This document shows, in pieces, positions 12,960-45,140 of a stretch of DNA of 64,000 nt; within the stretch, counting starts at the first letter, position 1; the number at the start of each line of letters is the position of its first letter. Under the pieces are notes generated by a model. That model did not search any database. It saw nothing but the letters and a program-made list of their open reading frames with translations, and was not told the DNA's origin. This DNA comes from Lama guanicoe (taxonomy: Eukaryota), in contig MU053645.1 in NCBI GenBank assembly GCA_013239625.1, positions 1-64,000 of the forward strand, read 5' to 3'. The position numbers and the translations under genes are program-made.

Positions 12960-14220
12960 AATTGGAGATCTTAGTGGAAGGAAAATTTCACTTTTCCATT
13001 TTACCCAGACTCTCTTTCCTTATTAGAGTCATGTCAGTGTTCACATCCTAACATATTCTGTTCTATGTCATTCATTCATTCAGTTTTAGAATTGTGAGCC
13101 AAGTGTGAGCCACTTAGCTGTGGTGCAAGACTATGATTTTGATGGTAAATTTGAGGTACTATGAAAAGAATGTGTTAATCTTGTGCACCACGTCATCTGA
13201 AGCTATTGAGCATTTGCACTGGATCTGGGGACATACGAAATTTGAGACTCATTTCAGCACAAGCACCTGTTATTTCATGTTCTAAGGTGATCCTGAACAG
13301 AGGTTGAAACAGGTCTTGTTTGTCTAATGGGAAAGCTAGAATGATTAATTATCTTTTTTGTCTACTTTAACCCACTCTACCAAAATATTTTGTTCACTCT
13401 AATGGTTATTGTTTGAGAATTGCTTTCCAGCCTCTATTATTTATTCATTCATTTTACTGATGCTGGGGATGGATTTGTATGTTTCAGTTTCCACAGAAAG
13501 TTAATGTCAAGCTGATTGTTATACTAATAGTCTTCTTTAATGACAACTGGGAAAGGTTATTTAATAACTGGATGTAGAAACAGTTTTGGGGGATAATTAC
13601 AGGCAGAAAAGGTGACATACCTACATCCATAATAGCCTTATTAGAGGTGTCTATCATCACTGTGACTGTGTATATGTATGTCTGTGTATTTGTATGTGTT
13701 TGGGAAGGTGATATATTTTATTGAAGAAGCTATGTCTGAGACTTCTGTTACTTGGGATAAATTGTTAGCTCCTCATGAGTAGAGCTGGATGTAGCTGAGT
13801 CACCAGTTATTCATTCATCTGCCTTGATTCTGTGTCCTAAAATAGCCTGACAACTGTGCAGGGTTTGATACTTTCAATGGATTCCATTGGACACAGAATA
13901 AAATTCAAAAGACCAGAAAGAAGGCTAAAGTTTTCCATTCTTTTAAGAAACCTGATGTTAATTTTATGCATTTATAAATTTAATAATATTTAAAATTTTA
14001 AGATTATATATTAAAAATTCCCCTACAAGATGGATACTACTTTCTAGAAAAAAAACCCTAAAACTTTAATGAAGTCCTAAAAGCTCTCTAAATTGTCTTA
14101 TATATTGAATATACAATTATCAAAAAAATTTTATAGCGATACAAGGAAATTCTTATAATCATATAGTGTTGATAAGGTGCCAGAGTAGCCACAATACTTT
14201 TATTACACAGGAACCTTATG
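12960..14220 (+). repeat. Inverted duplication, outer left arm (module copy A)
   Basis: Colinear reverse-complement homology to 43860-45140, for example ttcatgttctaaggtgatcctgaacaga vs tctgtttaggatcaccttagaatatgaa, and aaaatagcctgaca vs tgtcaggctatttt. Confidence 0.9.
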
Positions 14221-16599
14221 GACTTCACTTTTATTGTAATAAAGACGTTTCCTTTCTCTTTATCTTTCAGAAATTTGAATGCCTTTAAATTTTCACAGGC
14301 TACATCAGACAAGAAGCTCCCAGGTAGCAGCTTGAAATTTCAGTGGGGGCTCTGGGATAAAAGTGACAAAAAATTTTCCATGGGTCTTGGTGTTCATGAG
14401 GGTCATGTTAAGAAAAATATTCTTATTTAGAGAGAACACTATGCCTAGGATTGCTTTTTCTTTTGGTATATGTTAATGAATCACCTAGGTAGGGATAATT
14501 AGAATATAGCTTCCAAATTAGTACTTTTATAAGTCACACCCATTTATTGGATAATGGAAGACTATATTTTGTTTAATGATTTTGTGTTTGGTCTAAGAGA
14601 AATGGTGGAAAATAAATCATTATTTTTATTAAAACCATGGGAATTAAAAACTTCTCATTTGGACATTTTATTTCATGATGATCCTTAGAAAACTTTTAAT
14701 TTATTGAGCATGAATTTGGAAAGATTAATATTTGTTATTTATGTTAATTTTATTGTGGACAGGAAAGAGTTACCTCAGCAAGCCCGAGTTTTCTAAACCT
14801 TGAACATTCCAAAGAACAGCCTGTCTTCTGGACTGGCTCATGGCTTGCTTCCAGGGATAACTTCTGAGCCCTTGGGATATCCGACCTGATAAATTTGCTT
14901 TTATATGTCTGAGTCCTTGGGCCACTCTGTACATATTTGACCAGTTGAGTTTACTCTAACGATGAAATTTTTTGTGAATGCCTGTTTTTGCTCTGGAAGA
15001 TGGACCAGAAGCTGAGTAGTTGTAGTCAAATAGGCACTGAATGCCTGTGTCACTGACCTCCAGTAAAAGCTTTCAAGGCTCAAGTGAGCTTCCCTGCTTG
15101 GCACACATCGTTTCTGGTAGAATTAGGTGTGTCCACATGTGACTCTTCTGGGAAGGGACTCTTGGAAGCTTGCATCTAGTTACTTCAATTTTTCCCATGT
15201 GCCTTTCCCTTTGCTGATTTTCATCTGTTTTCTTTCATTGTATTAAACCATAACCATGGGTACAAGGGCTTTTCTGAATTACTTGAATCCTTCAAGCAAA
15301 TCATGAAGCTTAGGGGTGGTCTTGGTGATGCCCAGCAGAGTTGGCATCAGAAATGGGATTCACTACAATGACCCCGACTCACTGAAATGTGGTAATCACA
15401 TTGTTTGGGAAAAGGAAGGATGAGATGGTGATGGATGACAAATCTTAGATGCTTGAAGGGTGACTGAGTCACCCATTGTATGAGAAAGTAGCTGTGCTTC
15501 AGTCAGCCCCTGAATACATGAGGAAATACAAAATAATGAGGAAAAAAATCTAAATATACAACCCTTTAGTTATTTTTATCTCTAATAGGTGAAAAGAAAG
15601 TAATGGAGAGTGTTGAATCCTTAGAGCTGCTACCAAAGGGAAAAATTGTGCTGAAACAACAGATTGTTGTCTGACCTCTGGTCACAAAGAAGATATGGCA
15701 GGTAGCAGGGAGACACAAACACAAGAAACTACTGAAACTGGGGTTATAGTGTTAAAGAGTTTTCTCCATTTTGTGGATCAATATCACCAGTTTCCAGAAA
15801 ATGGATTGTGATAGTTACTAACCTAAGAACAGTCTACTTGGTGTTGAATGCTGGTAAATGGAGGAGTATCTTTGGATTGATGTAGGACCCATTCTTTACA
15901 ATTGAACGATGGCACTACATGATCCAAACACAGCAGTTTCTTCCTGAGAGGAAAACTAGCTTTGTGGACTGGATAAAAGCCACTGTAAAGTTTGTTTGCC
16001 CCAAGAAGAGGAATGCTTTTCGCTCTCCTTTAAAAACCAAGTGTAACCCTCAAGATGAAACAGTTGATATGCCGCATATGCAATCCATGCTGGATTGACT
16101 GTACAATGGTCAGAACGTTCATCCACTTAATATCCTCTTACCCAGGTCATGGTAAATGCTTTAATTTAGGGAGATGAGACTCTTTTGTATTGTTACCTCA
16201 TGTAACCTTGTTGCAAAATCAAGCAATGATCCAAGAAGCTCTATCAGATATGTTACTTCAACTTTCCCCTATGGGTCTCACAGATGCTAAGGAAACAAGA
16301 GTGTTTCACAAGAGAATAGAGATAGAAAAAGGGATAGACAAGGGACTCACACCGGCAAAGTGGAAATCTTTAAATTGTTGTTAAGGAATGAGATGAATAG
16401 AGTAGCACTGATGAAGCTGACACTGTTAATGGGAGGATATGAGGATACACTGGTTGATGGGATTAAGGTCAATATTTGAATCTTCTTTTTCTGCATGCAT
16501 TATTGAGAAAGATATCTGCCTACTGGAGAACACTTTATATGTCTAGTATGGGAAAACAGAAGGAATAGAAGTTCACCATTTGGCCAGTATTAACTGGAC

Positions 16600-19300
16600 A
16601 TGCTAAATGAGAATCTACAGAATTTCCTAAACCCACGCAGATTGTTAATTTGAAACAGTGTAGAATATTTGGTGGAGAAAAATAGACTACCATTTTAATT
16701 AACTACATGTTAGAATCTGGAATGCTATGACCAACACTTTCTCTGTAAATAGCCCTGTGCAGCCATTGAACAGGCAGATGGCACATGGACAGTAATATTA
16801 GAGTATCAAAGCTTGAATTTCATTTAGAATTAGCAGTCCAAAAAAGTGAAAAAAAAAACAAGTTAAAAAGGTGACTACTCAATGATTGATTTTGAAAATT
16901 TTTTTTTAAATTTTGGTACTAATCACGGAAACAAGTCAATTTGCAATTTTTCTTCATGTAAAAAGGATCTCAATTTATAATTTACTGTATTGCCACAGGA
17001 TTATTTGAATTCACCAGCTTACTGTCATAATTTGATTAGGAGGGATTTGGTCTTGATGCAGGTATTGAGTGTGATAACATATTGCATTGAGGATGTCATG
17101 GTAATATCAGAAATTGAAGAGCAAGATACAACTTACTTAAATGCAGTAGTGACAGACATGATTGACAAAGGTGAGTTGATAAATCCAGCAAAAATCCAAC
17201 AGCCTTTCCAAATGATGAAATTCATAGGAATAACATCGTAGGAGCCACTGAGACATCCCATAGGTAACTAACAATGAAATGCTCTCATTGCTTTCCTCTG
17301 GAAATAAGCAAGAAACATAGCACCTTGTGGGGTTTTTTGAATTTTGGAAGATGCATATTCCACCTTTGGAAAAACTGCTAGCTCCAATCCATAAAGCCAT
17401 CTGTAAGAAGGTCACATTTGAATGGGGAGCTGATAAACACCAGACTATGTCTGAAATGCAAAAAGCTCAAACCATGACTTTGCATCCTTATGATACACAC
17501 TCAGACATGAATTTGGAAATGTCTGCAACTTGCACTTAAGCAGACTTAAGCTCATGGCAAAGCCCATTAGCGCTGCCTGGCAGCGACCACTGAAATTTTA
17601 GACCAGGAAGTTTTCAGACCTGGCAGTACACTGTACACTGTTTGCGAGATAGTTATTCATTTGCTATTGGGCACTTATTGAAATTGCCATTATGACTGGA
17701 GGACATAAAATAATGTTGAAACCACTACTCATAACCTCTAATAAGGAAGGTTACTGGGAGAATACAAGGATACAGTCATTGTACTCATGACTAGGGAGCT
17801 TCTTTTCCCTTCGGCCAACTTTGGAATCACCTGAGGAACTGCCACATCTTATTACCACATGGGTAGTTCTCTATGCATAGCTCTCAATTGATCAACAAAT
17901 GGCTGCCTCGGTTTATGGATGTCAATGAAAGGGTAGATGGGAAGCACCTTTTTTGGAAGCCTGCTGCTGTGTAATGTACTGATAGAAAAACTCTGAAGAA
18001 GATAAGAATGAATTAGCTCAATATGCTGAACTCCATGCTCTTTTCTTTTCAATGATAGAAGAACTGAACAGCAATAAAATTTTAACAATCTAAGTTTATT
18101 CTGACACAGCATGGGGCAGATGGAATAGAGACGTGGCTAATGGCCTGACCATAGGGTCAGGCAGATGAGGGATGAAAAATTGGACTGTAAAGCACTCCTG
18201 CATGTGTCAGAGCCCCATAGTAATCATTATGGGAATTTAAGAGGCACATTGAAGAAATTCCTTCCAAACTCAGAAGGTGATTGGAATCAGCAAGTGGACA
18301 TCCTGATGCACATGCTTGAAGTGACTACCTGGGTCCATAAAAATGAATGGACATGAGGTAGCTGCAGCAATGCAGAGATGGCTGATCATTAATATATCCC
18401 ACGTGCACATTCTGAGGCACAAAATGCCAGTGAGAACTATCCTGTCTTCTAGGGAGACAGACAAAAACTACAAATGAATATGGGGTAGACTCCCTGGGGG
18501 GAAAGGCCCCGCGTATTGCTGGCATCTAAACTACATCACACTCCTACCAGTAGCCTTAGAACACTGTAAATAGGTCCTGACAGAGATAGATATTTACTGC
18601 AGACTAGGCTTTGCTTATCCCGTGGTAGATGCAAATGCTCAGAACTCTACAAAAAATTGGAATAGGAGATATTGTACCAGTTTAGACTGTCAAGTTGTAT
18701 TTCCTCAACCAAGGATCATATTTTATAATCCATAGGGTTCAACAGTGGTCAAAGATATCATATCAAGCAGACATACCATATTGCATATGATTCTTAGAGT
18801 AGCGCTTTGATAGAAAATTGGAACAGTCAAAATGAGTGGAGATAAAGAAGTGAAAGTTTAGTTTACACACCTTCATGAATGTGAGCTCACATTTAATGTT
18901 AGAAGGGACAAGAGATGATCCCCATTTGGTAAATTCTTGTTTTTCTGGGGGAACTAGGGGAAAAGATGATAAAGGAGGATGCTGGAACAACTATACAATG
19001 TTTCCTTAACTGCAACTTTTGCTTTTCCTGCCTGATTCAGTGATCCTGGGACCAGGACTGCAGGTGTCAGATGCAGAGATGATCCTTAAGCAAGAAACCG
19101 TAACTATACCTTTAAACCTTTATGCCAGTATTCCTAACTGTCTGATGGATGGACTGTACCTTCCTCCTGGCAAAATTGGAGTTGACAGTGAATGCAGCTG
19201 TATAGCCTAATGGTCAAGAAAGTCCACTAGCTCTGTACTTATGTAATCCTGCCCTATATGGATGAAAATGTACTGAGTTTCTACTTACACAGAAACTGTT
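16600..19300 (+). pseudogene. pol: ERV-L pol remnant (RT, RNase H, integrase, dUTPase), multiply disrupted
   Basis: LPQDYLNSPAYCHNLIRRDL and a degenerate YxDD (YCIEDV) at 16990-17241, GFFEFWKMHIP at 17327, and dUTPase-like TVTIPLNL after integrase, the order found in ERV-L. Confidence 0.85.
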
Positions 19301-19570
19301 GAAAACTGTCGAGAATAGGCATTGGCTAGACTGGTATTTGTGCTGATGATCCAGATCAACACAATGGCTAAACCTGACAATCCTTCCAAAGATGGAAAAG
19401 TTTGGGTAAAAATCAAAAAATGGAGAGAAGGAGCTATAGTCGTTGAGGTTATGGAATGGGCTATGGAATAATGGAAATCAATGATATTGTCTCTTCACAC
19501 AAGTATACCTTAATGCTCAAAAAGGTGAAGCCACATATTTTCATATTTTCTAAGACCATCCTTGCTTTTT

Positions 19571-19753
19571 TTTTTTTCAGACTTGGTATTCCTCAGTCGG
19601 ATTTGATTCTATTGTATTTTTTTAAACATTTTTTTGTGGGGAGGTAATTAGGTTTATTTATTTATTTATTTATTTTTAATGGTGGTACTGGGGATTGAAC
19701 CTAGGACCTTGTGCATTCTAAGTACACATTCTACCACTGAGCTATATGCCCTT
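19571..19753 (-). mobile_element. Camelid vic-1-like SINE with an extra 3' tail
   Basis: tRNA-like head at ~19683-19753. TSD ATCCTTGCTTTTT at 19558-19570 and 19754-19766. Confidence 0.9.
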
Positions 19754-21409
19754 ATCCTTGCTTTTTGAATTTGACAAGGTCAAACGGAAAACTGGAAACC
19801 TGAGTGGCATTGGTCCTGGAGACATTTTGGTCATACAATATGATAAAGATAGTCCTATAGTTAATGACTGAGTGGAACCCTAGTAATGTGCCAGTATCTT
19901 TTGACTCTTATTTTTCAGCTTTTATCTACTACAAAGGGTATTATTTTGGAAGGAATCTCCAGGAACTACTCCCTACTGGGGTATTGGTTCATGGAGTATA
20001 CAGCCCCTGGCAGACTAATTGCTGTGTAACCATGGCACTTTAACTTGCCATGATCCCATTCCAAACCATAAACTTTGATGATAACTAATTAGAAAGGTCC
20101 CTGGTTATAATGGATGAAAGGCCGCAGTAGCATTCCCGGCATGCCACAGTGTATTATGCACTGAAATAAATTACTCTTGTTTTTGTGATTGGAAAGCCAT
20201 TGAACAGAATAGAAAACAGTTTCTAATGGGAATTAAGCAGTGGACAAATCACAGATAAGTTCTAATTCTCCTAGGGAATGACCTCAACTTGAGCAATTGC
20301 CTTAGGTAAAAAAGTCATATGACAGTACTGATACGAATGATCTGATGTACTGAGTGAAAGCTTTCTCAGGATACGACACTGATAGAAAACAACTGGCCTA
20401 GGAAAAGCTGAATTTAGCTAACCATCAGCTATATTACTATGTTAAATAGTTCTTCACAAATTTATCACAAGGCACAAATAATAGTAGATTAAGAGGGGAC
20501 ATATGTAATCAAACTTGTATAAAAATATGAAAATGTTAACTTTATAGAATGGATTAATCATTTCATTAAATATATCCTTTCCCTACACTGGCTTCTCCAA
20601 CTGTTAGGCATATTTATGCTGATATTATTGTTGTATCTGTCATATAAATACTATACTGAATGTAGATGCACACAAAATATGATAATTTTTCTGTAAGAGG
20701 GCTTACAGAAGGATCCGGGCTGCTGATTGGGCAGGAAAGGATGAACTAAACTGGCCTGGATTCCTCAAACACTGCATATTCTAAAGAAAAGACTGTCTTC
20801 AGAGCCAGCCTTTGACTAACTCCTGGGAAATAATCTATGTACACTGGAATATTCTACCTAATAAGTTTGTTTTTGCATGCAGGTAAGTTTATCATTTATG
20901 CTGAAGGCCCGTTTTAGCTCAGGAATGGTAGGAGGGGCCTATATGACTGACTGCCTCCGTATCTCTGGCCACAAAGGCGCAGATGAAATTCCTTGGTTGG
21001 CAACTTCACATGAGTTGTCACACATTGTTGCGGGGGGAATTTAAGCATATCCTTGTGCAAATCCACTGGTAGGGGACATCTGGAAGCTTGAGACTGGTTT
21101 CTCCTGGACTTCATCCAATGTACATTTTCCCTTGCATATTTTGATCTATTTGACCTGAAATTTCATTGTTATAAACTGTAAATGTGAAAAAAAAACCCTG
21201 TAAATGTGGGCATAACAGCCTTTTAAAAATTTCTGTTTGAGTCCTTAGAGAAAATGATTAAGCATGAGGGTGAAACAGCTTGTGTATTGAAACATGGACC
21301 ATGTGGTAGAAAATTTAAGTGAAGACAAATAAACCAAGTTTAGTATGTTCCTTAATGTGATTTTGTTCATTAACCAATGAACCAGTTGGAGTGGTATAGG
21401 TTGGAGTGG

Positions 21410-22563
21410 CATAGGTTAGAGTGGCTGACCTCCCAACTATGAATCTGACCCTGAGAGTGATTGTATATATCCTCGTTTTCATACAATGCCACACTAATGC
21501 AAGAAATATGTAACATGTTGGTTTTGTGGCAACTGACCATGCTATCAGTTTCCGATAGATTGATCATATAGAATTACAGGCAGAAAAGGGGGGAAATCGG
21601 CATCATTTACAGGCCTATACAAAGTCTATCATCATAGGGTGTTTGTATGTGTCTGTGTCTGTGGGTTGAGGTATATGCTGGGGGTTGATGGTGCTAGACC
21701 CCTCCTATTTTGTGGGAGACAATTGCAGCTCATGTGAAGAGGATCCTGAGGGGGCTGAGTCCCCAGCCAGTTTTCCCTTCCTTGATTCTGTCAATGAAGA
21801 TGGTAGCACTGTGTGCTAGGTGGGCCAATTTGATATCTAATTTAATAAAACAAAGGCCTCTGTATTTTTCTAAGCAAGCATCCTTGTTTAAGAACGCTTT
21901 TTTTCTAGTACTTTAAAGATGTGTCATAGGTCATGATAATAGCTACATAGAGTAATAATCTTTTCACAATTTAAGAAGCACACGTAAAACGGGAAGTTAT
22001 AAAACAGGAGTTGGCAAATTTTTCATTGAAATGACAGATATTAGATACCCTATACTTTGGGGGCCATACAAGTCTCTATCCCAATTACTCAGCTCTGCCA
22101 TTGTAACAGCAAATCAGCCATAGACATCAAGATAAAAAATGAGGGCAACTATGTTCCAATAAAATTGATTTTAAAAAAAGGCAGCAGGCCAGATAGTTTG
22201 GGACCGCTGGTATAAAGGATTAGATTTTAAATGTTTGGAAAAATCTAGTGTTATCTCTCTGGGCTCCAATTCATCATCATCTTGCTTACAGCCACTCACA
22301 TAGTTGAGTATCATTTTGGAAACCAGTTCTCTAAAGCAATATTTATCTGGTTTTTTTTTCACCAGCAATTTCCATCTCAATGTGACTGCCCTTTACCTGT
22401 AGCATAAAGCACAGGTCCCTGAACAAAGACAGTTTCATGTCAGCTTAAGTGCCTGCGAGAGCAGATGGCAGGTAAGGGAAATCTGAATCTCTCAGTCAAC
22501 ACGCATTAGAGTGTGTACAGGTGCTGTGGCCAGGACTCTGATAACGCTGTTTTTCCTTTACCA
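21410..22563 (+). repeat. Inverted repeat, near-identical left core (module copy B)
   Basis: Reverse complement of 36235-37502. Mirrored ORFs 22171-22380 and 36532-36741 are identical, and 21710-21916 and 36996-37202 differ by one residue. Confidence 0.98.
22005..22212 (+). mobile_element. hAT-Charlie MER58A-like DNA transposon (mirror copy at ~36700-36907)
   Basis: caggagttggcaaa...actcagctctgccattgta...cagccatagac...gttccaataaaa. Confidence 0.85.
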
Positions 22564-23262
22564 CCTGTCTCCCATTTGGATCGGATATTTGAGAACGCTA
22601 CAGGGAGACAGGAAATTGAGGAGAGAGAGAAACAGGTTGCATTTCCTTTCTGCACCCTTATTCCTACCAGTGTTATCCCAACAAAGGCCCTTCAGCCAGC
22701 AGGGCCATGTGGTTTCAGTAGGGCCAGGAAGGACAGGTTTGCATATTTCTTCTAGTTGCAGGGATTTTGAACCTCACACCCTCTCAGAAAATTCAGCAGC
22801 ATCAGCTGCTCTTTCCCCTTTGCATCTAAGTTCTTTCCCCTTTACTCAAGAAGCCTCCTCTGTGATCATAAGGCTCAGCACCAGCCAAGCAACTCTCCCT
22901 CCTCAGAGATGAGTTCACAGGCTTGTAGGGTGACCTCTCAGAGCCCCTTTCAGAACCACCATTAACTGAGCATCCCCCTTTCCTCACAAGTTTGAGTCCC
23001 AACAAATAGGGACCCATCTTCCTCCTTTTTGGATTCTCAGACACCTTATATTCTCTTAGTTTGCCCTGCTCCAGGACTGGGAATTCCTTCCTATTCCTGC
23101 TATCTCTGTATAACATTAGTCCTCCTGTTTGTCTGTTTAGACATCACCAGCCTGTATAAGCAAGTCCCTCTATTAAATTCACATTCTTAGCAGCGTGTGG
23201 TTTCTAAACAGAAACCCGACCTCAACCTGCTTGATATACGTGTTTCTGACTGGATCCTGCCT
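22520..23262 (+). mobile_element. Ancient ERVL solo LTR (LTR41/LTR78/LTR33-like)
   Basis: 5' ccaggactctg and 3' ccctctattaaatt...gtgtggtttct...ctgactggatcctg. Related copies lie at 30410, 36010 and 48620. Confidence 0.65.
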
Positions 23263-24559
23263 TTGCTTTTTATGACTACTTCTTGGATCTGCTGATTGAG
23301 TGTCTCCTATAATTTGGGGGAAAATTCTCTGTTATTTTTCTCTTCAAATATTGCTTCTTTCCTAATCTGCCTCCCTGTCCTTCGAGGAATCCAGTAACAT
23401 ATCTCTTTGAAATCACATTTTATCTCCTAAATCTTTTACATAGTTTTTTGCATTTTCTCTCTTTTTCATTTGTACTTTTAAATCTTAACTAGCATATATT
23501 TCATTATTTCTTCCTTTGTTATGTCTAATCTGTTATACAGTAGATTCTTGATTTCAGCAATTTTCAGGAGGGGGACTGAGCTTCCAGATTTTTCCGTTTG
23601 ATTTGTTAAAATCTCTGCAGTTCTTTCAGATAAATTTTCATGAGGAATATACATTTGGATTCTAGTGAAATATCTCTACAAATGCTTTTCCAAAGCTTTC
23701 CCTTGATTTTTAATTTATCTGCTATTATTATACTCCACTTGTATTGGTTTGCATTCATTTAGGCTTAATATTTCTTCTTATATCTCCTTATGTTTTTAGA
23801 AAGTTATGTTAAGGTGCAAAACTGCACACACTTCTTATGAAATAGTGTAATGTACTGGAATAGTAAATTTGAAAGTCATCAATCTCTATGAGCTATGATC
23901 CTCTTTCCTCTTGCTTTCACATCAAATCCCCTTCATCAGTTTTGGAAATAGCATTCATAATGTTTTATTTTTGTTTGTATGTTTTCACTAAGGGTTCGTG
24001 TGGCTTTTTGTTCCAAGAGGAAACTATGTAGAATGATTTTCCAAACATATGAGAGTTTTATATGAATTATACAATATTGGCTATATTTTTATACCTAATA
24101 TTTTCTATGTTAATATTTTAAAAATTCCCCTATTTAAATGGTTGCACAACTTTCTAATTTCTCCTTATACAACAAGTGACTTTGTCAATTCTATATAATA
24201 ACACCTTGCTCTTTTTATCAGTTTTTTATGACAAAAGAAAATGCAATAAATAATCCTTTGAACATGGGCACTATTTACCTGTTAGTGCAGCCCAGGGCTG
24301 AAGAACTGCTGAAGTACGCAAGTAGTAATCTTTCCTGAGAGTTAGCAAATTTGGAATTCTCGTCTCCAAAAAAGAAGTTACTATCAGCTTTGTAACCCAA
24401 ACCCAATAAATAATTTAATTACAATAGTAATGAAATTCTCACCTTGATATCACAAGGCATGAAGGGCAAAATGGCAACTTTAAAATGATACTGGCTTGCA
24501 AAACCAAAAGCAGAATATGAATTTTTCTGAGGGAATGGATAAGCAAAGAAGGCAAAATT

Positions 24560-24860
24560 CAAGGTGGAATTAAAAAACAAAATGGAAGGACATGCTGTCA
24601 ATGAAAAAGGTGGAGTAGAGAGCTCCAAAATCTCATACTTCCAAAAAAGCAGCAAGTCAATTGGAAAAAAAGTAAAAATTTACTTTATGAGAATTCTGGA
24701 AACAGAAAAAAAGTTTTCAGAAACCAGGTAAATGTTTAATAAAGAAAAAACAATAGAATCTCAGTAAGAGAGCTCTGTGGCACTTTAACTTGCCATGATC
24801 CCATTCCAAACTTCCCGAGGAAGCCCAGACATTTGACTTAATAGACAAAATCTTAAATAA
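24560..24860 (+). mobile_element. Old LINE-1 5' region fragments
   Basis: Similar to the L1 5' region at 60700-60830 (gtaagagag...gtg.cact/attttaactt). Confidence 0.55.
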
Positions 24861-25713
24861 CAAAGACACTAGCCAATGCTCAGCATTCCACTCAGTGAGC
24901 CTCCAGTAACCTCATGCTCATTACCAAGTCTTTGACATTCTTTCTAAGCATGCTCATATTAAGAAACATGACATTATTTAGGTCCCCTTACCCCACATAA
25001 ACCTCCAAAACAAACACTTAAGAAAGGGGTTATCAGACTCTAACTTCCAAACTAATATATTGATAAGGCATGAATGTTTCTTATATGACTGCAGGCTTCA
25101 TTTCTTGTATAGAAATTTAATCATCAACGAAAGAGCAAATGTGCAAAATTCAGTGTCATAAAATATATTAGAAAATGTAAAGTACTTATTTGGGAATATT
25201 ATTGCTTGATCATCCTCAACATACTGTGAAGTTAATGTGTGGAGGATTCCTTGTAGTAATATTTGCCCTTTATGTTGATTTAATTGTGAATTCTCACCTT
25301 GCAGCCTTATTTTATTTAAGGATAAATTGAAGTACTGGATACTTGTGTATGCCCAAGGTCCTCTGAGAAATTGGGGGTAGATAAAAACTTGTTGGGTGAT
25401 GTTCTGTATCCTAAAATGATCACATTGTTCTAAAGGTGTATACGAATCTAGCAATAGAGGGTATATTGGGACAGAGACAAAGAATAAGATGACAGGGCAG
25501 TTTAATGGTTTTACTGAAGAGATTTCCATATCAATTGTTTAAGAATATATTCTCTTTTGGTAGAAAAACATAACTCAAATTATTATTTCTGAGGTTTGTG
25601 GAATGTGCCCCATCAAAGTGATTCACATCAAGATGCAGATGTGAAAATATGCTATGGTATTGTTTTAAAAGGCTATTCATAGAGTTTATTTTAAAAAAAA
25701 GTATGGATGAAGA

Positions 25714-26170: not shown

Positions 26171-26488
26171 TACATGTATGGGTAGAATAAAAAAGCCTGG
26201 GGGGATAGACACTCATGTTTACACTGAAACTCTCAACCAATTCTTAGAATTTTCAGTGAGCGTTCCTACGATGAGGGGGAACAAAGAGATGTAAACAATA
26301 TATACCCTTGTGTTAAACAAAACACTGTTTTGAGAGGGAGACACTTAGACATACAGGCTAGCCTTGTTGTTGGGTGATGGTGGAATATTCCACGGGCTGG
26401 AGAGTCTTGCCTGTGAAACTTGTCTCTAGTTGCCCTAGTGTCCTTGGGTGTGTTTCCCTTTTAGTCTCGCTGTGCAGATTATCAGCTC

Positions 26489-26507
26489 TGGTCAGCAGGT
26501 GGCACTT
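26489..26507 (+). promoter_or_regulatory. CTCF-binding motif candidate
   Basis: TGGTCAGCAGGTGGCACTT compared with the core consensus TGGCCACCAGGGGGCGCTA. Confidence 0.6.
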
Positions 26508-26982
26508 ACCTATATTCCTGTGACTCCTCAGAACACAGAGGTATTACATTTATTTTTTTTGAAAAAGATGCTTATAACACAACATGGGGCAAAATACGAA
26601 CATGCATGCAAAAAACCATGCCTGCAATGGAATAACAATGTTGCTTACACAAAGTGAGGTAGAACGCTACGTAGTGATGTGGAATGATAAGTTGCATGAA
26701 AAATGAAAAATGCCACTGAAATAGGGGATACTGACTCTCGCGTTTCCTCTCATTAACTGAGGAGAACGGATCCTCTGAACATTCATGTAGGGTGCGCACC
26801 AACATGAGGGATATAGTAGACCTAATCTCACCATTTTGCAATGCAGTTGGCATTTTGCATTCTGATCCATTACTGTGTTGTGTTTTTTGGAAACAAACGG
26901 TGAGAGAGAGTTGATGTTTTGAAAGTCAGCTTACGAGACTATATGAAGCAGATTGATGGCCACCTTCCTGAATTCTATAAGA

Positions 26983-27185: not shown

Positions 27186-27214
27186 AAAGGTTTTATTTTT
27201 TATCAGCCTTTTAA

Positions 27215-27345
27215 AGGTAAGAGACATTATTACCTTATTTCACCAAAATGGAGACAAAGGAACAAAGTGGTTAAGCAGCAATCGGAAAGTCACATGGTTG
27301 ATGAGTGGCAGAGTTGAGACACAAACCCTCATCTGTCTTTCAGAA
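27215..27345 (-). mobile_element. MIR fragment
   Basis: ggttaag...aagtcacatgg...gagtggcagagttgaga...aaaccc. Confidence 0.6.
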
Positions 27346-27580
27346 GGCTCTGATTTAAAATGAGTGACCATGAAAACATCCCACTATTCACCCTTCTGGA
27401 GAAACTAGCTAGGCTAGATCATGGGTCTTGACAACTACCTCCATTTCCTGTGCCCTAAGAACCTGTTGAAATCCTTTACGTAGTTTGTGCACTGGTGTAT
27501 CTCTAATTCAGCATGGCCCTTCTTTTGTGGATTCCCAAGTAGACAGGGGTGATTTTGTTTTGCTCTAGAGTGCACAGATC

Positions 27581-27785
27581 CAGTGATGTGCTGGAGCTGG
27601 CTCAGACCAGTGCACGAGAGCTGAGTCTCTGCGTCACTTGCCGATGCAGCTTTCAGTGACATCATCTTGGTGGCTAAAAATAGTTGGGCACAGTAGGGGG
27701 ATTTTAAACCAAGGAAAGTGGAAATCCTGGAAACCAGAACGGCACACCTCCTCCCCTGGGTACCCGTTTCATGCGCATTACTGCC
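27581..27785 (+). mobile_element. hAT-Blackjack MER63-like element
   Basis: cagtgatgtgctggagctggctc...ttcagtgacatcatcttggtggct. Confidence 0.7.
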
Positions 27786-28269
27786 CAGCCCCGGCCACGC
27801 AGGCATTGTCTCTAGGCTTATTATAGGAGAAAGTGCTGCGTCATAGTGCAGAACTGTCTAATATGAATGACTGCGTGGCAGAACTTGCGTGTGCTTGTGG
27901 ACCCTGATAACTTTGTGCAGTCCTTATCAACCTTGCTAAAATTAAAAAAAAAATCTTCACATGGTTTTAAGAAACCTACCTCTAAGCGTATTATTCACTG
28001 CCAGTGTGGTTTTAGCATTACCTGGGCATAGCAGATTCCCAAACGTGAGATAATTAGCTTTATCTCCCTGCCGTCCTAGGACACGGGATGCTTTGTGGGA
28101 GCTGTTGTGCTTTTTGGAAAGTGTTTTCTCCTTGCAGCCCCAATAACATACATTTGTCCAACTGTAGGCACAGTTTCCTTTGGCCCTGGCAAAACCTGAT
28201 TTTCTAGTTTGCCTTCCTCTGACATCCAGACACTTGCTGCTCGGCAGGTCATTTTAAAGTGACCAACAA

Positions 28270-29460
28270 TCCACTGGCTTCCACCTGCACAAATGCACCT
28301 GGACTCTTGGGTACAGCAGGCTGAAAGGTGGTTTGTAACAGAAACTGGAACATGAATCTGTGTCTCTAACAGGGGAACCATACTTCTTAACCCCTCTTTA
28401 CTTCCTTGATAATCCCTTCTGCTAAAAGCTTCCTTTCTCTAAATGCCTGTTCCATGGAGAACTTCAAGTATTATCTCTAATATTCATTCATTCGTTAGAT
28501 TGGGAATGGTATAAGCGACTAAGATCAAGAGCAACATGCAGCTTCTGAGGATGTACGTGCATTTCCCGGTTTCCTCAGAAAGCTAACATCAACAAGAACA
28601 TTTTGATGACATTCTGGTTTCTATGACAACTTGCATATGCCATTTTATCCTAGAGGCAGAAACATTTAACAATGATGTTTACAGGCTGGATGGATTAGCA
28701 GCAAAAATATGCAGCCTAGTAGGTGACTACTATCACTGTGAGATAGTTTGTGTGTGCATGTTTGTGTATGTGTGTTTTGGAAAGGTGAGGTGTTTAGTTG
28801 GAGATTAGGTGCTATAAAGCCTCCTGTTTTATTGAAGAAGCTGGAAATTCCTATTAAAGAGATCCTGAGGTAATGAGTCAACTTTCTGTGTTCTGTGTCC
28901 TAAGATGACACTTGTTGTGTGAGGGCATTGTGATCTGAGATCTTTAAAGCAGAGGTCTCCAATTATTTCTGATCTTACATTTCTGTTTTAAAAAGAAATT
29001 TGCTTATACCCTAAGGATGTACTTTGCTCATTTTATATCTACTTCTACTAAAAAAAGATGATGTCTATGTTACGGGAGAGAAAATTTGAAGTCAAAATAT
29101 GATGAGCTAAAACGGGTAGGATTGGAAGCTCTAATGTGACTTTGTGGAACTGCAGGGTTAATATGGTGCTCACCTTGAGCAGCTGACACATAGATTAAGA
29201 AAGATCTTCTTTTTAAAAGACAAATTTGCTGTCATCACACCACTAATTAAAATCTGTAAATGGCTCCCCGTTTAAGCATAAGTTACAAGCTCCTTAACAA
29301 AGTTTCTGATTTTTGTGTGTGTGTGGTTTAGGAAGTAGCTGTTGCTGGTGTTATAGTTATTTCTGTATTTATTATGTTTCAAAAGGAAGTCATAGCATCT
29401 AAAGGAATTACTGTTGCATTTATTGTCAGGATATGTGCTTTAGAAAGAAGTGAGTACTAT
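28270..29460 (+). repeat. Module copy C
   Basis: Shares blocks with copy A (atgacaact, ctatcactgtga, ttttattgaagaagct, ttctgtgtcctaa). Confidence 0.8.
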
Positions 29461-31126: not shown

Positions 31127-32819
31127 AAGGTTATGTTTGTTTTTCAAACACATCTTAAATATTCTACTTGATTTTTGTTCATTATTTTGGAAAATTCTCC
31201 GCTGTTGTCCCTTCCAATATTTTTACTTTCCCAGAATCTCTCCTGGAACTCCTTACATACCTCTTAGGTGTTTCAGTATATACATTTGAAAAAGAAATAT
31301 TTCCTTTGATCAATATAAAATATCAGCCTAAGAACTTTTCAAAGATCTTTTCCTTATGTTTTCTTTGTATGGGACCATTTTGCTACCATTGATTACTTTC
31401 TTTTTGTTCACTTATATCTGATAGCTCATTTCATGCCTCCTTAAATTCTCTATAAAGTTATATTTAAGTGTATATGTACATATAAAAACACCCTCTGTGT
31501 AATATTTTACAATATGATGGGGAAAAATCAAGTTTCCCTTTACTATTCGTTTCCATTTTTGTTACTCTCTTGTTTCATGTGTAACTATGTTATCAGATTT
31601 CCGTTTACCATTCAAGACTCATTTGTACCCCATTTTATCCTGAGATAAACATACATAGCATTGCTCTCTACGTGTAGTATAGTGTTTTACATGACCTGTA
31701 TCATTTGCACTTCGTTGATCTCTAAGCTTATTATATTAACTGGAATTTTTCTTCTGTGTCAATGCATTTAGCTCTGCATCAGTCTTTGTAATGGATAAAT
31801 AACACATCCTTCTTGGCTTAGACTATCAATTTTTAAGCCTGTCCCGTGGATAACACATTGCTATATCCAATTATGTCATTGTGGTTATAATGAACTATGA
31901 TGCAATGACTTATCTTGTGTACATGAGCAATTTCTTATCCTTGTGCACGACACAGGGGAATTGATAGGGTCTGAAAGACACATCTTGTTCCCTCACTTGA
32001 ATGTTAATAATTACAAAGGTCTCACCTTTAGGAAAAGAAACTACTCTTCACTTTTTAACCGAAAACACTATGCTTGATATTATTACAATTACAGGGCACA
32101 CTAGATACCTTTCCTATGGCAGGGTAATAGGGACTGAAGGGTTAAAGAGCACCTTGGAAAGAAAGTTGTCCTGCTGGACTGGAGAAACAATCTGAGTTTT
32201 GTAAAGGAATGGGCTTTGAAAGGGAGGGTATTCACTCTAGTCTTAAAATAATGTCTTAAAGATAAACCATGAGTGTTGCAAAGTTCTTTTTCTGAAGTGC
32301 TCATGTTTTCACTTTGCTAAGTAGGAGACGGTCTGGTCTTCTAAGGCATCTACCTGAAGAATAGGTTTTGTGACTGGTTATTTGTTTAGAGAACAATCAG
32401 GAGTCAGAGATTCAGTACTGAAAGTTTGGTAACGTGAATATGTGTATGCATATTTACAGTCATACGATATAATTCAGAAAATGAGGAATAAGTCTAACCT
32501 AATTTATTCCGAATTAGCAAACTGAGGGCAATTTTGTGCATCCTCAGATTGCAATAGTTGCCATTTAAATGCTATGGACAAAAGACAACCTTCCTAAAAT
32601 GAGGCACGACCCCTCTGAAGAAATATATGAATTGGTGAACAACGTAAAAGGACAATTTTAAAGACAGAAATTCTTATGTAATTGTTCTGAAAATTCACTG
32701 CTAACCTAATGGTATCTTATAAACTTTTTAAAAATGTACATGGGAAAATATATGCTAAAATTAATCCGGAGAGGAAAAGGTGCAATAATAGGCAATAATG
32801 TGTTTTCCTTATAAATACA

Positions 32820-33830
32820 ATTTTATAGACTGTGCCTTTATTATGGTAAGGGGAAATTCTTACTCATATTTTATGAAACTACTTTTCTGGGCAGCCTTTA
32901 AAATTATAAATCCTAAAGATTACAAGAGCTTTGCTAAATAGTAATTGTAGTCAGGAGTCCAAGGGGTAAAGATGAAAAGAAATGAATTACTTCCTCCTGG
33001 TAATGGTGTGGTGGCTTTTTTTTTTTAATTAAGAAAATTATCCTGATTTTGAGAGAATTCCTTGCCGAAGATTATCTTTTTTCCCCAGTAGTTATTAAAG
33101 CCCTCACTTAAGAAAGGAGTTAACAAAATAGAGCTTCCAAAATAATTCCTCCAAAAACCATGGCTGTTGATTGGAGAAATAAAGTTAATTTGCAGCTAAT
33201 TCTTCCATTCTTTAACTAAAGAGTGAATGTCATACATAGAACAAAAATTAAACAGGGACTTTGAAAAATTAAAATACTCAATTGAAGAATTTATTTCTTA
33301 ATGATCTAAAATTGACCATGATATTGTACATTTCAGAACTTTCAATTATAGTATTTCCTTATTGTTATAATTTCATTGTGTACTCAGTCTTTTTAGACAG
33401 TGTTTGGCTGAACTCTAAAGTGCAATATCAGATATACTTTTATACCCATGGACCTTTGAGAAATTGAATTTATTTGAAAAAATTAGTATGGTATTTTTCA
33501 ACATTCTATGGCATTGGTACTGGTGTGCAAAAGGGGATCAATATTTATATATCTTCATTTTTCTCTCTGTCTCTTGTGAATGTGGAGTGTGTGTGTATGT
33601 GTGTGTGTGTGCTGGAGTGTGGGGAGGTTTTTGTTTGGAGGCTAATCAATCTGATTTTATGGAAAAAGTTTATAAGTCCTGCTGAGGGGAAACTGGAGTG
33701 ACTGAATCACTATTTTTCCCTCTCTTTTTTTTCCCTGTGTCCTCAGATGACACCTGTAGTTTGAGAGCTGATTTGTCTCTGAGTTCTCTAAAACAGAGGC
33801 CTCCAAAGCTGTACGATCACATACGCCGTC
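32820..33830 (+). repeat. Module copy D (uninterrupted paralog of 14220-14750 plus 21273-21870)
   Basis: aatagagcttccaaa vs aatatagcttccaaa; tagtatttcctta vs tagtatgttcctta; ctgtgtcctcagatgacac vs ctgtgtcctaagatgacac; aaaacagaggcctc. Confidence 0.7.
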
Positions 33831-36010: not shown

Positions 36011-36234
36011 TTTCTGAGGGGGTGCAATATCCAATGTCCCTGAAATTAGAAGAAAATTTACAAACTGGTCTTTCTTGCCCCTACAGGAACTACATAGCCC
36101 TGCTGGCTGAAGGCCTTTGTTGGGATGACACTGACAGAGAGCAAGAAGAATCAGAAAGGAAATGTAAGCTGCTTCTCTTTCCTCTTGATTTCCTGTCTCC
36201 CTGTGGCATTCTGAATGATCAGACCCAAATGGTT
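36010..36234 (-). repeat. Diverged inner flank of the right arm (LTR part), mirror of 22564-22790
   Basis: ccctgctggctgaaggcctttgttgggatgacactg vs cagtgttatcccaacaaaggcccttcagccagcaggg, with many substitutions and indels around it. Confidence 0.85.
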
Positions 36235-37502
36235 GGTAAAGGAAAAACAGTTATCAGAGTCCTGGCCACAGCACCTGTACACACTCTAATGCGTGTTGAC
36301 TGAGAGATTCAGATTTCCCTTACCTGCCATCTGCTTCCTCTTAAAGTGCATTTCATACAAGGAAGTCAGCAATAAGTACTGAGAAGACTATGCTTCTCTC
36401 TGAAAACATAATTAATAGAATGAATTACTAACTGCATCATCAACAATATCTCCTCGCAGGCACTTAAGCTGACATGAAACTGTCTTTGTTCAGGGACCTG
36501 TGCTTTATGCTACAGGTAAAGGGCAGTCACATTGAGATGGAAATTGCTGGTGAAAAAAAAACCAGATAAATATTGCTTTAGAGAACTGGTTTCCAAAATG
36601 ATACTCAACTATGTGAGTGGCTGTAAGCAAGATGATGATGAATTGGAGCCCAGAGAGATAACACTAGATTTTTCCAAACATTTAAAATCTAATCCTTTAT
36701 ACCAGCGGTCCCAAACTATCTGGCCTGCTGCCTTTTTTTAAAATCAATTTTATTGGAACATAGTTGCCCTCATTTTTTATCTTGATGTCTATGGCTGATT
36801 TGCTGTTACAATGGCAGAGCTGAGTAATTGGGATAGAGACTTGTATGGCCCCCAAAGTATAGGGTATCTAATATCTGTCATTTCAATGAAAAATTTGCCA
36901 ACTCCTGTTTTATAACTTCCCGTTTTACGTGTGCTTCTTAAATTGTGAAAAGATTATTACTCTATGTAGCTATTATCATGACCTATGACACATCTTTAAA
37001 GTACTAGAAAAAAAGCGTTCTTAAACAAGGATGCTTGCTTAGAAAAATACAGAGGCCTTTGTTTTATTAAATTAGATATCAAATTGGCCCACCTAGCACA
37101 CAGTGCTACCATCTTCGTTGACAGAATCAAGGAAGGGAAAACTGGCTGGGGACTCAGCCCCCTCAGGATCCTCTTCACATGAGCTGCAATTGTCTCCCAC
37201 AAAATAGGAGGGATCTAGCACCATCAACCCCCAGCATATACCTCAACCCACAGACACAGACACATACAAACACCCTATGATGATAGACTTTGTATAGGCC
37301 TGTAAATGATGCCGATTTCCCCCCTTTTCTGCCTGTAATTCTATATGATCAATCTATCGGAAACTGATAGCATGGTCAGTTGCCACAAAACCAACATGTT
37401 ACATATTTCTTGCATTAGTGTGGCATTGTATGAAAACGAGGATATATACAATCACTCTCAGGGTCAGATTCATAGTTGGGAGGTCAGCCACTCTACCCTA
37501 TG
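36235..37502 (-). repeat. Inverted repeat, near-identical right core (module copy B')
   Basis: Reverse complement of 21410-22563, plus a 117-bp segment (36336-36452) missing from the left core. Confidence 0.98.
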
Positions 37503-39489
37503 CCACTCCGACTAACCAATGAACAAAAACTTATTAAGGAATATACTAGCAGCCTTTAAATAGTAGGTATTTCATGAGCCAAACTTTCCAAACAATGGTA
37601 ACAAAGAAATTTTTGGCTTGTTTATAGGCTCAGATTTCTCATAGACTCACTGTCAGGATTAACTTGGAACCAACAATACCACATGCTTGGTCCTGAAGGG
37701 ATGCCAAAATCTGCAGACCTTTAAAGTTGTCTCCAATACTCAATTGCCACAGTTGAGCCCTGAACTCAGGAACAGGGAAGAGGCATTGGAAACATCTCAG
37801 ATGCCCTTAACTTAGTGCCTCAGGACAGACTTCCACGTCAAGGAGGCTCTGACTGCCACCATTGACCAACAGAAATACACACTCAATTCTACTAAAGTTG
37901 TGTCACAGGAATTCCCGATAGCAGACTGTGGTGCACAGAATATTCAGTCAGTTCCTCACACTGATCTATTACCTCAGCCTTCAGGCATAAGTCACTGCAA
38001 CCCCAGTTGCCAAGAAATTCCCTTGGCACTTGAATCACAAGATGGATATATACTTTCTGTGACTCATTAAATTTATCATTAGAGCATCAGCATCATACCA
38101 GATGACAATGTCTAAACATGTGACTCACATTGCTATGACTGAGTAAATGAAGTAGAAGAGAAGATGTCAGAACCTGACATTGTGATGACTCTGTGCAGAA
38201 CATTGGGCTAAAGCAATATACAGGAAAGTTTTTTTTTGTTTTTTTGAATACAGAAGTTATCATCAGAGATTCTTTTGTTATAACGGGCTGTCACGATGGT
38301 AAGTTGGTTGGTGTGGGTGGAATGCCCACAAGCTCTCAGGATACTTTGTATAAATATCATGATAGGAGAAGGTAGAGATATCAAAGCCTTCAGGTACAGA
38401 GGCAGGCAAGCCTCACATGGATTTACTGTCTAGGCCAAAACAGGCAGTCAATATATGGAAAATATATATGAAGATAATAGGAAGAAGGAAAAGAGTTCTG
38501 ACAAGAGGTTGAACTCCCACAGACTGCCCTCTGTTTGACAAACACTGAGAAATGAATTTCAACAAGTGACATTTAGGAATTTACTTCCCTTAGGAAATGC
38601 TGGAATTTACACACTGCCAATGGTAATGATGTTCAGTTGTATGACTCTTACAGATATGATAGATTAAGAATTTTGAAAAGAAACTGAATGAGGGTTGACA
38701 AGGAACTCCCTGATTTATTAAGGTTCACAAATATATATATAGTTTCTGTCACACATAGCTATTCAGCTTAAGAGAGACACAACTGTTACAGTGAATCTCA
38801 GAATTAAAAACAAAGAGAAAATCCCCTTTGTCATCAGTCCTGGGCTGTCTTATTCAAGAAGCCACCACATTCTTCCTGGGATACACAGAAATAAGGCCAG
38901 GTGGGACAGTCATTGCATGTGTATAAGTGAAGGAAAGTTTTCAGTAGTTTCTCTATGAGGGAAAAACCAAGACAGATATCATGACCCACATTACAGCTCT
39001 TATAATTTTTTCATGGATGTAAAATAGTAGGGTGGGTCCATGGGTAGCTTTCCCACCAGAGAATCATTCAGTAAGTTAGTTGAGGTTTGAGTGTGGTTCT
39101 GCTACTCAAGCCATGCATGGCTATAAGCATTTTTCTTAGCTGCTCTGTTTCCAAGTCTCCCTTTCTAACAAAGAGACAAAATATCAACATCTCTTCAATG
39201 CAAGGATTGATTAGAGGTCACAAACATGCACTGTATTTTATGTGGAATATCAAGGATGAATAAAAGTGTTAAAAAAAGTCCAAGGTTATTTCTGGTAGTA
39301 TGGAGGGGACCACAGTTCATGGGAATATAAGACTTCAGTCTAGAAATGCTGGGCTCCAATTGTTGGCATTTAAATTGCCAGCCGATAAATATTTAGATAT
39401 TTTTCTAAACTTTCTCAGCATGCTGCGTGGGGAAGGAAAATGAGATTTATTACACACCCTCAAGTTCACAGTAAGGAAACATTAAAAAA

Positions 39490-40592: not shown

Positions 40593-40829
40593 TTGGTCAT
40601 TAGTACATACATTGAACAATACCTAGCCCATTAAAGTATCCCTCAAAATCTCAGAAATTTTCAGCTTTTACAAATATTCAAATATTTGTACTGACCCAGA
40701 TCTTCTAGAACCTGGTTTAATATTTAAATACAAACTCAAATTAATATAAATAACAGATATTTATCTCACCCAATCTATGACCGATTAATTCATAGTTTTT
40801 TAATGATCATCAAGAAATAAAATATCTAA

Positions 40830-43840: not shown

Positions 43841-43859
43841 ACTTTTACACTAAAAGAGT

Positions 43860-45140
43860 AGTTTGTCATGGTCCCATGTAATAAAAAATTTTATTCTGGC
43901 ACTTTACTGACACTAGATAAATTTTATAATTGCCTTGTGTTAAAAGGAACTTTTGATAACTATTTTGGTATTGAATATATAGGACAATTTAATGAAAATT
44001 TAGATAATTACTAAAATTTGTTTTTTTTTCCTGATAAGTTGTACCCATGTTTTCACGGGAAATTTTAATACATAATGTTAAAATTTTAGAATATTATATA
44101 CACTGTAAAGTCATAAAATTAATTTAACCCTGTTTAGGATCATCAACATTTTATTTTACATTCAAAAACAGAATCCATTTTAAAGAATCAAAGAGGGACT
44201 AAATAGGCTCTCTCCACGCAGGTGTCAGGCTATTTTAGAGCATAGAGACAAGGAAATTGAATAAATAACTGGTGATTCAGTTATTTACCACCCTCTTCAT
44301 GAGGACCTGACAGTCTCTCCCAAGTTACAGGGGGGATCAGACCCATGTTCTCCAATAAAATAACTCACTTCCTCAAACACGCACACATAAAAAGACACAT
44401 AATCACAGTCATAGTGATGGTAGACTCCGCAATCGGCCAGTTATACATGCATGTATGCCATTCTTCTTCCCCATGAATATCCTTGCTAACCGTTTCTACC
44501 TCTGACCATTAGATAGCATATTCCAGTTGTCACGGAAACCAGAATATCAGCTCAACAATCAGTTTTACATTAGCTTTCCAAGGCAATTGGAGTATAAATT
44601 CATCCTCAGAATCAATGCAATGCATGAATAAGTGAATAAAATGTTAGGAGAAACTATTTCAGCAATTCTCCCAAAATTTACCAGTAGAGTAAAATAAAAG
44701 GATTTTAAAACGATGAGTTAAACTGGAAGAAAAGGCTAGTTGATCATTCTGGGTTTCCTGTCAGACACACAAATACTGAGTTCAATGTCTGTTTAGGATC
44801 ACCTTAGAATATGAAATACCAGATGCTCGTGCTGAAAGGGATTTCAAAATCCATATAGCCCCACACCCAGTGCAAACATTCAATAGCTCCAGACGTCCTG
44901 GTTCCCAAGATTATCACATTCTTTCTATTGTACCTTAAATTTATCATCTAAATCATACATAGCCTTGTACCACAGGTCAGTGGTCCACTTATTACTCATG
45001 ACGCTAACTAAAACTAAATGAATGAATGAGTGAATGAGGTAGAAAAGAAAATGTTACAATCTGGACATCGAGATGACTCTCATGAGAAAGCAGAACCTGA
45101 GTAACATGTGAAAATGAGATTTTTCCCTCTACCAAGATCT
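43860..45140 (-). repeat. Inverted duplication, outer right arm (module copy A')
   Basis: Colinear diverged reverse complement of 12960-14220. Confidence 0.9.

What the first reader, a model, noticed from the sequence alone, without database searches (positions are those of the whole stretch)
12960..45140. Array of at least six diverged copies of an unidentified non-coding module
Seen: one ~400-bp block recurs at ~13490-13870 (+), 21480-21870 (+), 28570-28960 (+), 33450-33810 (+), 37040-37430 (-) and 44220-44590 (-). Its order is (g)acaact, tacaggc, ctatcatcactgtg, a TG-rich tract, TGA(G/A)TCA, a pyrimidine tract and ctgtgtcct(a/c)a. Copy D at 33450-33810 keeps mainly the 3' half. I do not recognise the block as a TE, and it keeps no shared reading frame. 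Inference: this is a tandemly amplified regulatory or ncRNA unit (alternative promoters or 5' exons, an enhancer array, or a lncRNA or small-RNA host) serving a gene outside the window or an unannotated transcript.
Basis: partly seen in the sequence, partly recalled or inferred. Interest (0 to 1): 0.7.

Follow-up and report, generated by a model that had tools for sequence, protein, structure and literature searches.

The report
Ancient tandem duplication, partly inverted
The six look-alike blocks are real, but they are the shared core of a very old, partly inverted tandem duplication of ordinary non-coding DNA that now drifts at close to the same rate as its neighbours, with only faint signs that the block was once a promoter and first exon.

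Summary
All six copies are real: each is recovered by a profile built without it at E 1e-25 to 1e-54, against under 9 bits in shuffles. They amount to five sequences, since B and E differ at 4 of 1060 bases. The block is not a free-standing module. It is part of a 5-7 kb unit whose flanks, old repeat relics included, are also duplicated. A-B and F-E are collinear arms of an old inverted duplication, and B/E were recently homogenised, probably by gene conversion. The block is not significantly better conserved than its flanks in 7 of 7 pairs, shows no rate heterogeneity and has no Rfam match, coding signal or shared fold. Faint hints of constraint remain: rate 0.84 of the upstream flank (95% 0.67-1.00), 8 of 8 motif codons intact in probable orthologues of copy C, and X-box-like and splice-like sites. 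Best reading: decaying relic of an amplified promoter/first-exon unit. The locus could not be named, and transcript structure was not obtained.

The parts
13490..13870 (+). Block copy A
21480..21870 (+). Block copy B, inside the tract shared with E
28570..28960 (+). Block copy C; probable orthologues exist in another species (P0004, P0005); donor-like GT at 28785, acceptor-like AG at 28903
33578..33820 (+). Block copy D, 3' half only; strong acceptor-like site, AG at 33745
37040..37430 (-). Block copy E
44197..44590 (-). Block copy F; a weak 24-pair hairpin lies at about 44502-44562
12966..14239 (+). Outer left arm segment, 68% identical to 45140-43845 (includes A)
43845..45140 (-). Outer right arm segment (includes F); cut on the low side by L1-type sequence (label recalled)
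21400..22459 (+). Homogenised tract, left copy: 4 differences in 1060 bases; begins at a 15-bp tandem duplication (21385-21425)
36453..37512 (-). Homogenised tract, right copy; ends at a 117-bp indel (36336-36452)
22460..22792 (+). Older stratum of the B/E duplication, 82% identical to 36335-36009
27200..28500 (+). Upstream segment U of unit C; homologous to 37500-39211 (-), 44600-46030 (-) and 12965-13460 (+)
37500..39211 (-). Upstream segment U of unit E
44600..46030 (-). Upstream segment U of unit F
23872..25373 (+). Spacer segment X between B and C; homologous to 31833-33466, 14216-14759, 46356-47061 (-) and 40731-40829 (-)
31833..33466 (+). Spacer segment X between C and D
14216..14759 (+). 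Spacer segment X after A, cut by the provirus; its end is 78% identical to 40829-40731
46356..47061 (-). Spacer segment X upstream of unit F
22438..23192 (.). Old interspersed element downstream of B (LTR-like by recall); also after C (30245-30891) and E (36011-36511), with a fourth copy outside the array (48662-49175)
14756..21272 (+). Decayed endogenous retrovirus between A and B; its two LTRs (14756-15318, 20728-21272) are 71% identical
27581..27783 (.). Short element with terminal inverted repeats, present only in unit C; shared, with its flank, by another species (P0001-P0003)

Best explanation
The block is the core of a 5-7 kb unit (spacer X, upstream U, block, old LTR-like element) that was tandemly amplified at least four times early in placental or therian evolution. 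The segment holding two units was later copied in inverted orientation, giving arms A-B and F-E around C and D. Ectopic gene conversion between the arms has since rewritten about 1 kb around B and E. Shown: unit-wide homology, collinear arms, identity strata of 82% and 99.6%, absence of coding or RNA-family signal, and near-uniform divergence. Inferred: the unit was amplified because it held a small polymerase II transcription unit. The block would be its promoter and first exon (X-box/MYB-like site, TG-rich exon, donor, 120-140 base intron, acceptor). Most copies have since lost parts of that anatomy and drift, with at most weak constraint left, most likely on copy C.
For: Flanks are duplicated with the block in a constant order. 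Arm model: A/F 68% over 1.3 kb; the X piece after A is 78% identical to the piece before E against 60-72% for the 5 other pairings; B/E 82% then 99.6%. Age: ML distances 0.54-0.82 substitutions per site, A/F 0.36; a provirus with 71% identical LTRs interrupts the array; unnamed proteins called on other assemblies match unit C best, at 67-78% identity. Drift.
Against: The promoter/exon step is inference only. No copy has both a strong donor and a strong acceptor, and the scoring matrix was crude and recalled. There is no CpG island: CpG observed/expected is 0-0.33 in the blocks. The X-box-like pattern has 25 hits and YAACKG 68 hits in the window. No coding exon that the unit could have served was found. 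None of the constraint tests reaches p 0.05, and A/F is less alike in the block (0.71) than in its flanks (0.74). The B/E tract could be an assembly error; reads were not seen.
Confidence: 0.45

Rival explanations
1. Passive duplication. The unit is ordinary intergenic or intronic DNA, the block possibly an unrecognised old repeat relic, and no copy ever had a role. The block stands out only because it survived random deletions and carries a memorable TG tract.
For: Block equals flank in 7 of 7 pairs. Uniform rates fit best, and invariant columns match simulation: 47 vs 41 +/- 6 for five copies, 106 vs 112 +/- 9 for four. Longest invariant run is 6 bases in three copies. Orthologue identity in the block equals that in a transposon relic. 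Spacer X survives at 5 places too.
Against: The block is slightly more alike than its flanks in 5 of 7 pairs. Rate ratio 0.84 has an upper bound of 1.00. Motif codons are intact in probable orthologues. Repeated fixation of a multi-kb unit usually goes with a gene family (general knowledge).
Confidence: 0.3
2. One reading: a currently active array of promoters, first exons or enhancers, for instance germ-cell promoters read by RFX and A-MYB, driving a long non-coding RNA or a gene outside the window. Conversion keeps B and E alike.
For: V1R promoter regions run at about 0.8-0.9 of the flanking rate and are shared by all family members (PMC1955453, section 6); the block's 0.84 and 6-of-6 retention fit that range. 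Two RNA-Seq runs of one study, labelled reproductive system, hold 0.30 of the sampled words of 26200-35100.
Against: Motifs are patchy across copies. No target gene lies in the window, and E/F face the other way.
Confidence: 0.14
3. Array of microRNA-like or other structured RNA genes, with a hairpin in the block's 5' half that survives best in copy F.
For: F folds into a 24-pair hairpin, -19 kcal/mol, z -2.3. Across A, B, C and F, 71% of cells pair and 5 pairs change on both sides; 12-40 of 500 shuffles reach the observed values.
Against: The structure was taken from F after many windows had been folded. A, B and C do not fold this way alone (z -0.2 to -1.2). Consensus energies are -0.5 to -4.5 kcal/mol. 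There is no Rfam match. D lacks this half.
Confidence: 0.07
4. Six independent insertions of one transposable element.
For: Pairwise identities of 50-70% are what old repeat copies show. Dfam could not be searched.
Against: The flanks are homologous on both sides. All copies lie within 32 kb, with none in the rest of the window. Arm symmetry in the 5' half is no higher than in random pieces.
Confidence: 0.04

Closest known systems
Inverted repeats and palindromes kept alike by arm-to-arm gene conversion (PMC8327919, PMC3308322, PMC3961182; passages seen)
   Same: Collinear inverted arms around a spacer, and a tract of over 99% identity about 1 kb long, which is in the range given for mammalian conversion tracts.
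   Different: The near-identical part is 1.06 kb, far below the 8 kb used to define X palindromes. The rest of the arms is 68-82% identical, no gene lies in the arms, and X linkage is untested.
V1R promoter homology peaks (PMC1955453; abstract and section 6 part 1 seen)
   Same: A 0.4-1 kb non-coding region shared by all members of a tandem family, at about 0.8-0.9 of the flanking rate, with gene conversion in some pairs.
   Different: No receptor or other coding exon lies in any unit, no mapped transcript start is known, and the rate difference here is not significant. Sequence likeness to V1R promoters was not tested.
BGW motif of the BEX/TCEAL/ARMCX cluster (PMC1274310, PMC7586669; passages seen)
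   Same: A eutherian non-coding element repeated in a cluster and subject to gene conversion.
   Different: BGW is a strongly conserved motif of about 60 bp in first exons of coding genes. Here there is no conserved core and no coding gene.
X-linked MIR-506 family arrays (PMC11031087; passages seen)
   Same: An old, fast-diverging multi-copy non-coding array.
   Different: No Rfam microRNA match and no hairpin shared by the copies.

Membership tests
Tandem segmental duplication | Homology extends beyond the element into flanks, in constant order | tested here: met
Tandem segmental duplication | Old insertions shared at homologous places | tested here: inconclusive
   An element follows B, C and E in the same place and orientation, but B/C and C/E copies (0.65-0.69) are no closer than to a copy outside the array (0.67-0.70)
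Inverted duplication with gene conversion | Collinear arms and a sharply bounded tract of higher identity inside older homology | tested here: met
   99.6% over 1060 bp beside 82% and about 80%
Inverted duplication with gene conversion | Both copies confirmed by reads; paralogues closer than orthologues across species | not testable with these tools
   No read alignment and no orthologous DNA was obtained
Large X palindromes (PMC8327919) | Arms over 8 kb at over 99% identity | tested here: not met
   1.06 kb at 99.6%; definition
Large X palindromes (PMC8327919) | On the X chromosome, mostly with testis-expressed coding genes | not testable with these tools
   No genome held; no coding gene found
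Conserved promoter/enhancer array (V1R-type peak) | Present in all family members | tested here: met
   3' half in 6 of 6 units, 5' half in 5 of 6
Conserved promoter/enhancer array (V1R-type peak) | Lower substitution rate than flanks | tested here: inconclusive
   Ratio 0.84, 95% 0.67-1.00; p 0.09-1.0 in 7 pairs; no rate heterogeneity
Conserved promoter/enhancer array (V1R-type peak) | Mapped transcript starts or open chromatin | not testable with these tools
   Runs were found, but no depth, strand or joints were obtained
BGW motif | About 60-bp strongly conserved motif in the first exon of BEX/TCEAL/ARMCX genes | tested here: not met
   No such coding gene among 267 frames sent to Pfam; longest invariant run 6 bases; the motif's letters were not compared
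microRNA or snoRNA array | Match to a known family | tested here: not met
   Rfam 15: only four tRNA-like SINE heads at gathering score; nothing relevant at E up to 5 in 11000-47000 or up to 10 around F
microRNA or snoRNA array | Shared hairpin with covariation | tested here: inconclusive
   No consensus fold; weak support for F's hairpin
Interspersed transposable element | Unrelated flanks at each copy | tested here: not met
Interspersed transposable element | Match to a Dfam/Repbase consensus | not testable with these tools
   No repeat library available
Protein-coding gene family | Shared open frame or domain | tested here: not met
   No Pfam hit in 150 of 150 frames; 2 of 117 frames with weak hits, both outside the array; translated self-matches full of stops

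The most novel reading that the evidence does not exclude
The block is a still-working family of germ-cell or reproductive-tract promoters and first exons, older than the placental radiation, with an X-box/MYB site and a TG-rich exon. It drives unannotated non-coding transcripts from both arms of an ancient inverted repeat, and gene conversion is selected to keep copies B and E alike.
Probability: 0.12. Interest if true: 0.55.

Novelty: new member of a known kind. Interest (0 to 1): 0.22.

Why it matters
As it stands this is a clear example of an ordinary thing: an old duplicated region whose copies have drifted apart, with one short stretch still being copied between inverted arms. Its modest value is as a dated series (distances 0.8, 0.55, 0.36, about 0.2 and 0.004 within 35 kb) showing that conversion can recur between 1-kb inverted copies tens of millions of years after duplication, with no coding gene in view. 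It would matter more if the block proved to be transcribed: it would then be a non-coding counterpart of the multi-copy gene families in mammalian palindromes.

Tried and rejected
Own genome: none held, so genome-wide copy number, chromosome and neighbouring genes are unknown. Rfam: nothing but SINE heads. Pfam: 267 stop-free frames sent. These were 262 of the 309 frames of 50 aa or more outside the masked repeats, plus 5 repeat-derived frames; nothing relevant was found. Those 5 gave no clear hit, so they are no positive control. Translated self-comparison: no coding signal. A two-part motif scan gave 4 metagenome loci, 0 of 4 homologous, and 0 viral loci. Protein searches with frames from D and from the minus strand of C found no candidate; P0006 is a long low-complexity match and was dropped. 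Earlier notes: none near, by sequence or in relatives; the word search gave unrelated microbial cases. A seventh copy near 25400 was considered and rejected: it is spacer X only. A CpG-richer 'promoter' at 27600-27800 is a transposon relic. A hairpin at 13248-13331 is not shared. An apparent palindrome in the 5' half is at chance level. The first identity profile was too gap-tolerant: unrelated controls reached 0.58-0.65. It was replaced, whose controls give 0.54-0.60, so power is low for distant pairs. Recombination-signal, snoRNA-box, olfactory-receptor, defensin and SNRPN upstream-exon ideas were considered from recall and found no support; only the last was searched in papers (listing only).
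Full report
Setting. The window is mammalian-type DNA: 36% G+C, CpG observed/expected 0.16, four tRNA-derived SINE heads, and flanks full of mutually similar repeats that I read as L1 (label recalled). Earlier AI notes on other pieces of this genome call it alpaca-type (not checked here). No whole genome is held, so the locus could not be named.

Observation. Profiles built without a given copy recover it at E 1e-25 to 1e-54, while 20 shuffled windows and the reversed window never exceed 8.5 bits. D is homologous only over 33578-33820. There is no seventh copy. Pairwise identity is 50-71% except B/E, which differ at 4 of 1060 bases. The named motifs are in the stated order but none is exact in all copies.

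The unit is larger than the block. Tiling the repeat-masked window against itself shows a recurring order: spacer X, upstream segment U, block, then an old interspersed element that I take from recall for an LTR. X occurs at five places, U before A, C, E and F, and the element after B, C and E. B to C is 7.1 kb and C to D 4.9 kb, D having no U. The 3' half of the block is the only part found in all six units. A caveat: the element's copies after B, C and E are no closer to each other (0.65-0.69, B/E apart) than to a fourth copy outside the array (0.67-0.70), so its co-duplication rests on position and orientation.

Inverted arms. A/F are 68% identical over 1.3 kb. The X piece after A is 78% identical to the piece before E, against 60-72% for the 5 other pairings. 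B/E are 99.6% over 1060 bases, then 82% over 337 on one side and about 80% over 49 aligned bases on the other. So A-B and F-E are collinear arms around C and D, with a sharply bounded, recently homogenised tract. It starts at a 15-bp tandem duplication and ends at a 117-bp indel. Gene conversion is the simplest cause; mammalian tracts are described as rarely longer than 1 kb (PMC3961182, passages). A local assembly error is not excluded without reads. It is not a palindrome in the sense of PMC8327919 (arms over 8 kb at over 99%; passages).

Age. ML distances are 0.54-0.82 substitutions per site, 0.36 for A/F. At a recalled neutral rate of 2-2.5 per billion years per lineage this means roughly 110-200 and 70-90 million years. 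A decayed provirus with 71% identical LTRs interrupts spacer X. Unnamed short proteins called on other assemblies match unit C best. P0001 matches a transposon relic at 39 of 53 residues and runs on into its flank. P0004 and P0005 match the block at 35 of 45 and 26 of 39. I read these as chance frames on orthologous DNA of other mammals; their species are unknown and may differ. The array is therefore probably not camelid-specific.

Is the block constrained? Mostly not detectably. Block and flank identity do not differ significantly in 7 of 7 pairs (p 0.09-1.0); the block is higher in 5, equal in 1, lower in 1. Unrelated controls give 0.54-0.60, so power is low for distant pairs. A uniform-rate model beats gamma and invariant-site models, and invariant columns match 200 simulations (47 vs 41 +/- 6; 106 vs 112 +/- 9). 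Orthologue identity in the block equals that in the transposon relic (60 of 83 vs 39 of 53). V1R promoter regions run at 0.8-0.9 of their flanks (PMC1955453, abstract and section 6 part 1), so weak promoter-like constraint remains possible.

What it is not. No Rfam family matches. No Pfam domain lies in the array: 0 of 150 frames, and the 2 of 117 frames with weak hits lie outside it. Translated self-matches are full of stops. Consensus folds are negligible. One lead remains: F folds into a 24-pair hairpin of -19 kcal/mol with weak cross-copy support (12-40 of 500 shuffles), found after many windows were folded. There is no CpG island. It is not the BGW motif, which sits in first exons of coding genes (PMC1274310, PMC7586669, passages), nor a MIR-506-type array (PMC11031087, passages). 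Dfam was not available.

Anatomy, inferred. Read on the strand of A-D, the block has an X-box-like pattern (recalled consensus) in B, C, E and F and a YAACKG word (PMC2797782, passages) in A, B, E and F. Both patterns are common in the window (25 and 68 hits). After the TG tract comes a donor-like GT (percentile 99.9 in C, 98.7 in F, 89-96 in the rest), and 120-140 bases on, after the pyrimidine tract, an acceptor-like AG (99.7 in D, 92 in C, 80-89 for the best sites in the rest; crude recalled matrices). This reads as promoter, short first exon, short intron, but no copy keeps both sites strong.

Expression. Of 24 runs listed, 14 hold the stretch 26200-35100 or part of it and 3 are on record as RNA, all from one study; two of these hold 0.30 of the words. 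Depth, strand, starts and joints were not obtained, so this is weak: it could be intron, background or DNA.

Verdict. A real, old tandem duplication with a later inverted copy and a recent conversion tract. Best reading (0.45): a decaying family of promoter/first-exon units. Rivals: purely passive DNA (0.30), an active regulatory array (0.14), structured RNA (0.07), independent repeat insertions (0.04). Eight paper searches were by concept, since the locus has no name here; I cannot say whether it is described, and it may well be annotated in human or cattle. No supplements were read. New member of a known kind; interest 0.22.

Noticed in passing
window 14756-21272: Decayed endogenous retrovirus; LTRs 71% identical, internal region broken into short frames (longest listed 109 aa).
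   Followed up: partly
window 27581-27783: Short element with terminal inverted repeats, folding at about -35 kcal/mol, only in unit C; shared with its flank by another species (P0001-P0003).
   Followed up: partly
window 29140-29515 and 30014-30427: Internal direct duplication within unit C, about 75% identical in its core.
   Followed up: no
window 26493 and 30012: The only two CTCF-core-like words in the window (pattern recalled); the surrounding 31 bases are 84% alike.
   Followed up: no
window 44502-44562 (-): 24-pair hairpin in copy F with two adjacent two-sided changes in B/E; weak and found post hoc.
   Followed up: partly
window 21340-21425: The left edge of the homogenised tract carries a short inverted and a 15-bp tandem duplication absent from E, as template switching would leave.
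   Followed up: no
window 7062-7133, 19680-19751, 47205-47276, 52016-52087: Four tRNA-derived SINE heads; one lies inside the provirus.
   Followed up: no
window 13015-13100, 28415-28500, 38110-38200, 45020-45100: A second block shared by units A, C, E and F, ending in (ATTC)n; gives the best 60-bp window for E/F (0.83) and for C/E (0.75). Possibly an old LINE tail (recalled).
   Followed up: no
window 27790-28560: Upstream segment of C keeps more CpG (13, observed/expected 0.35) than its homologues in E (0.09) and F (0.18).
   Followed up: no
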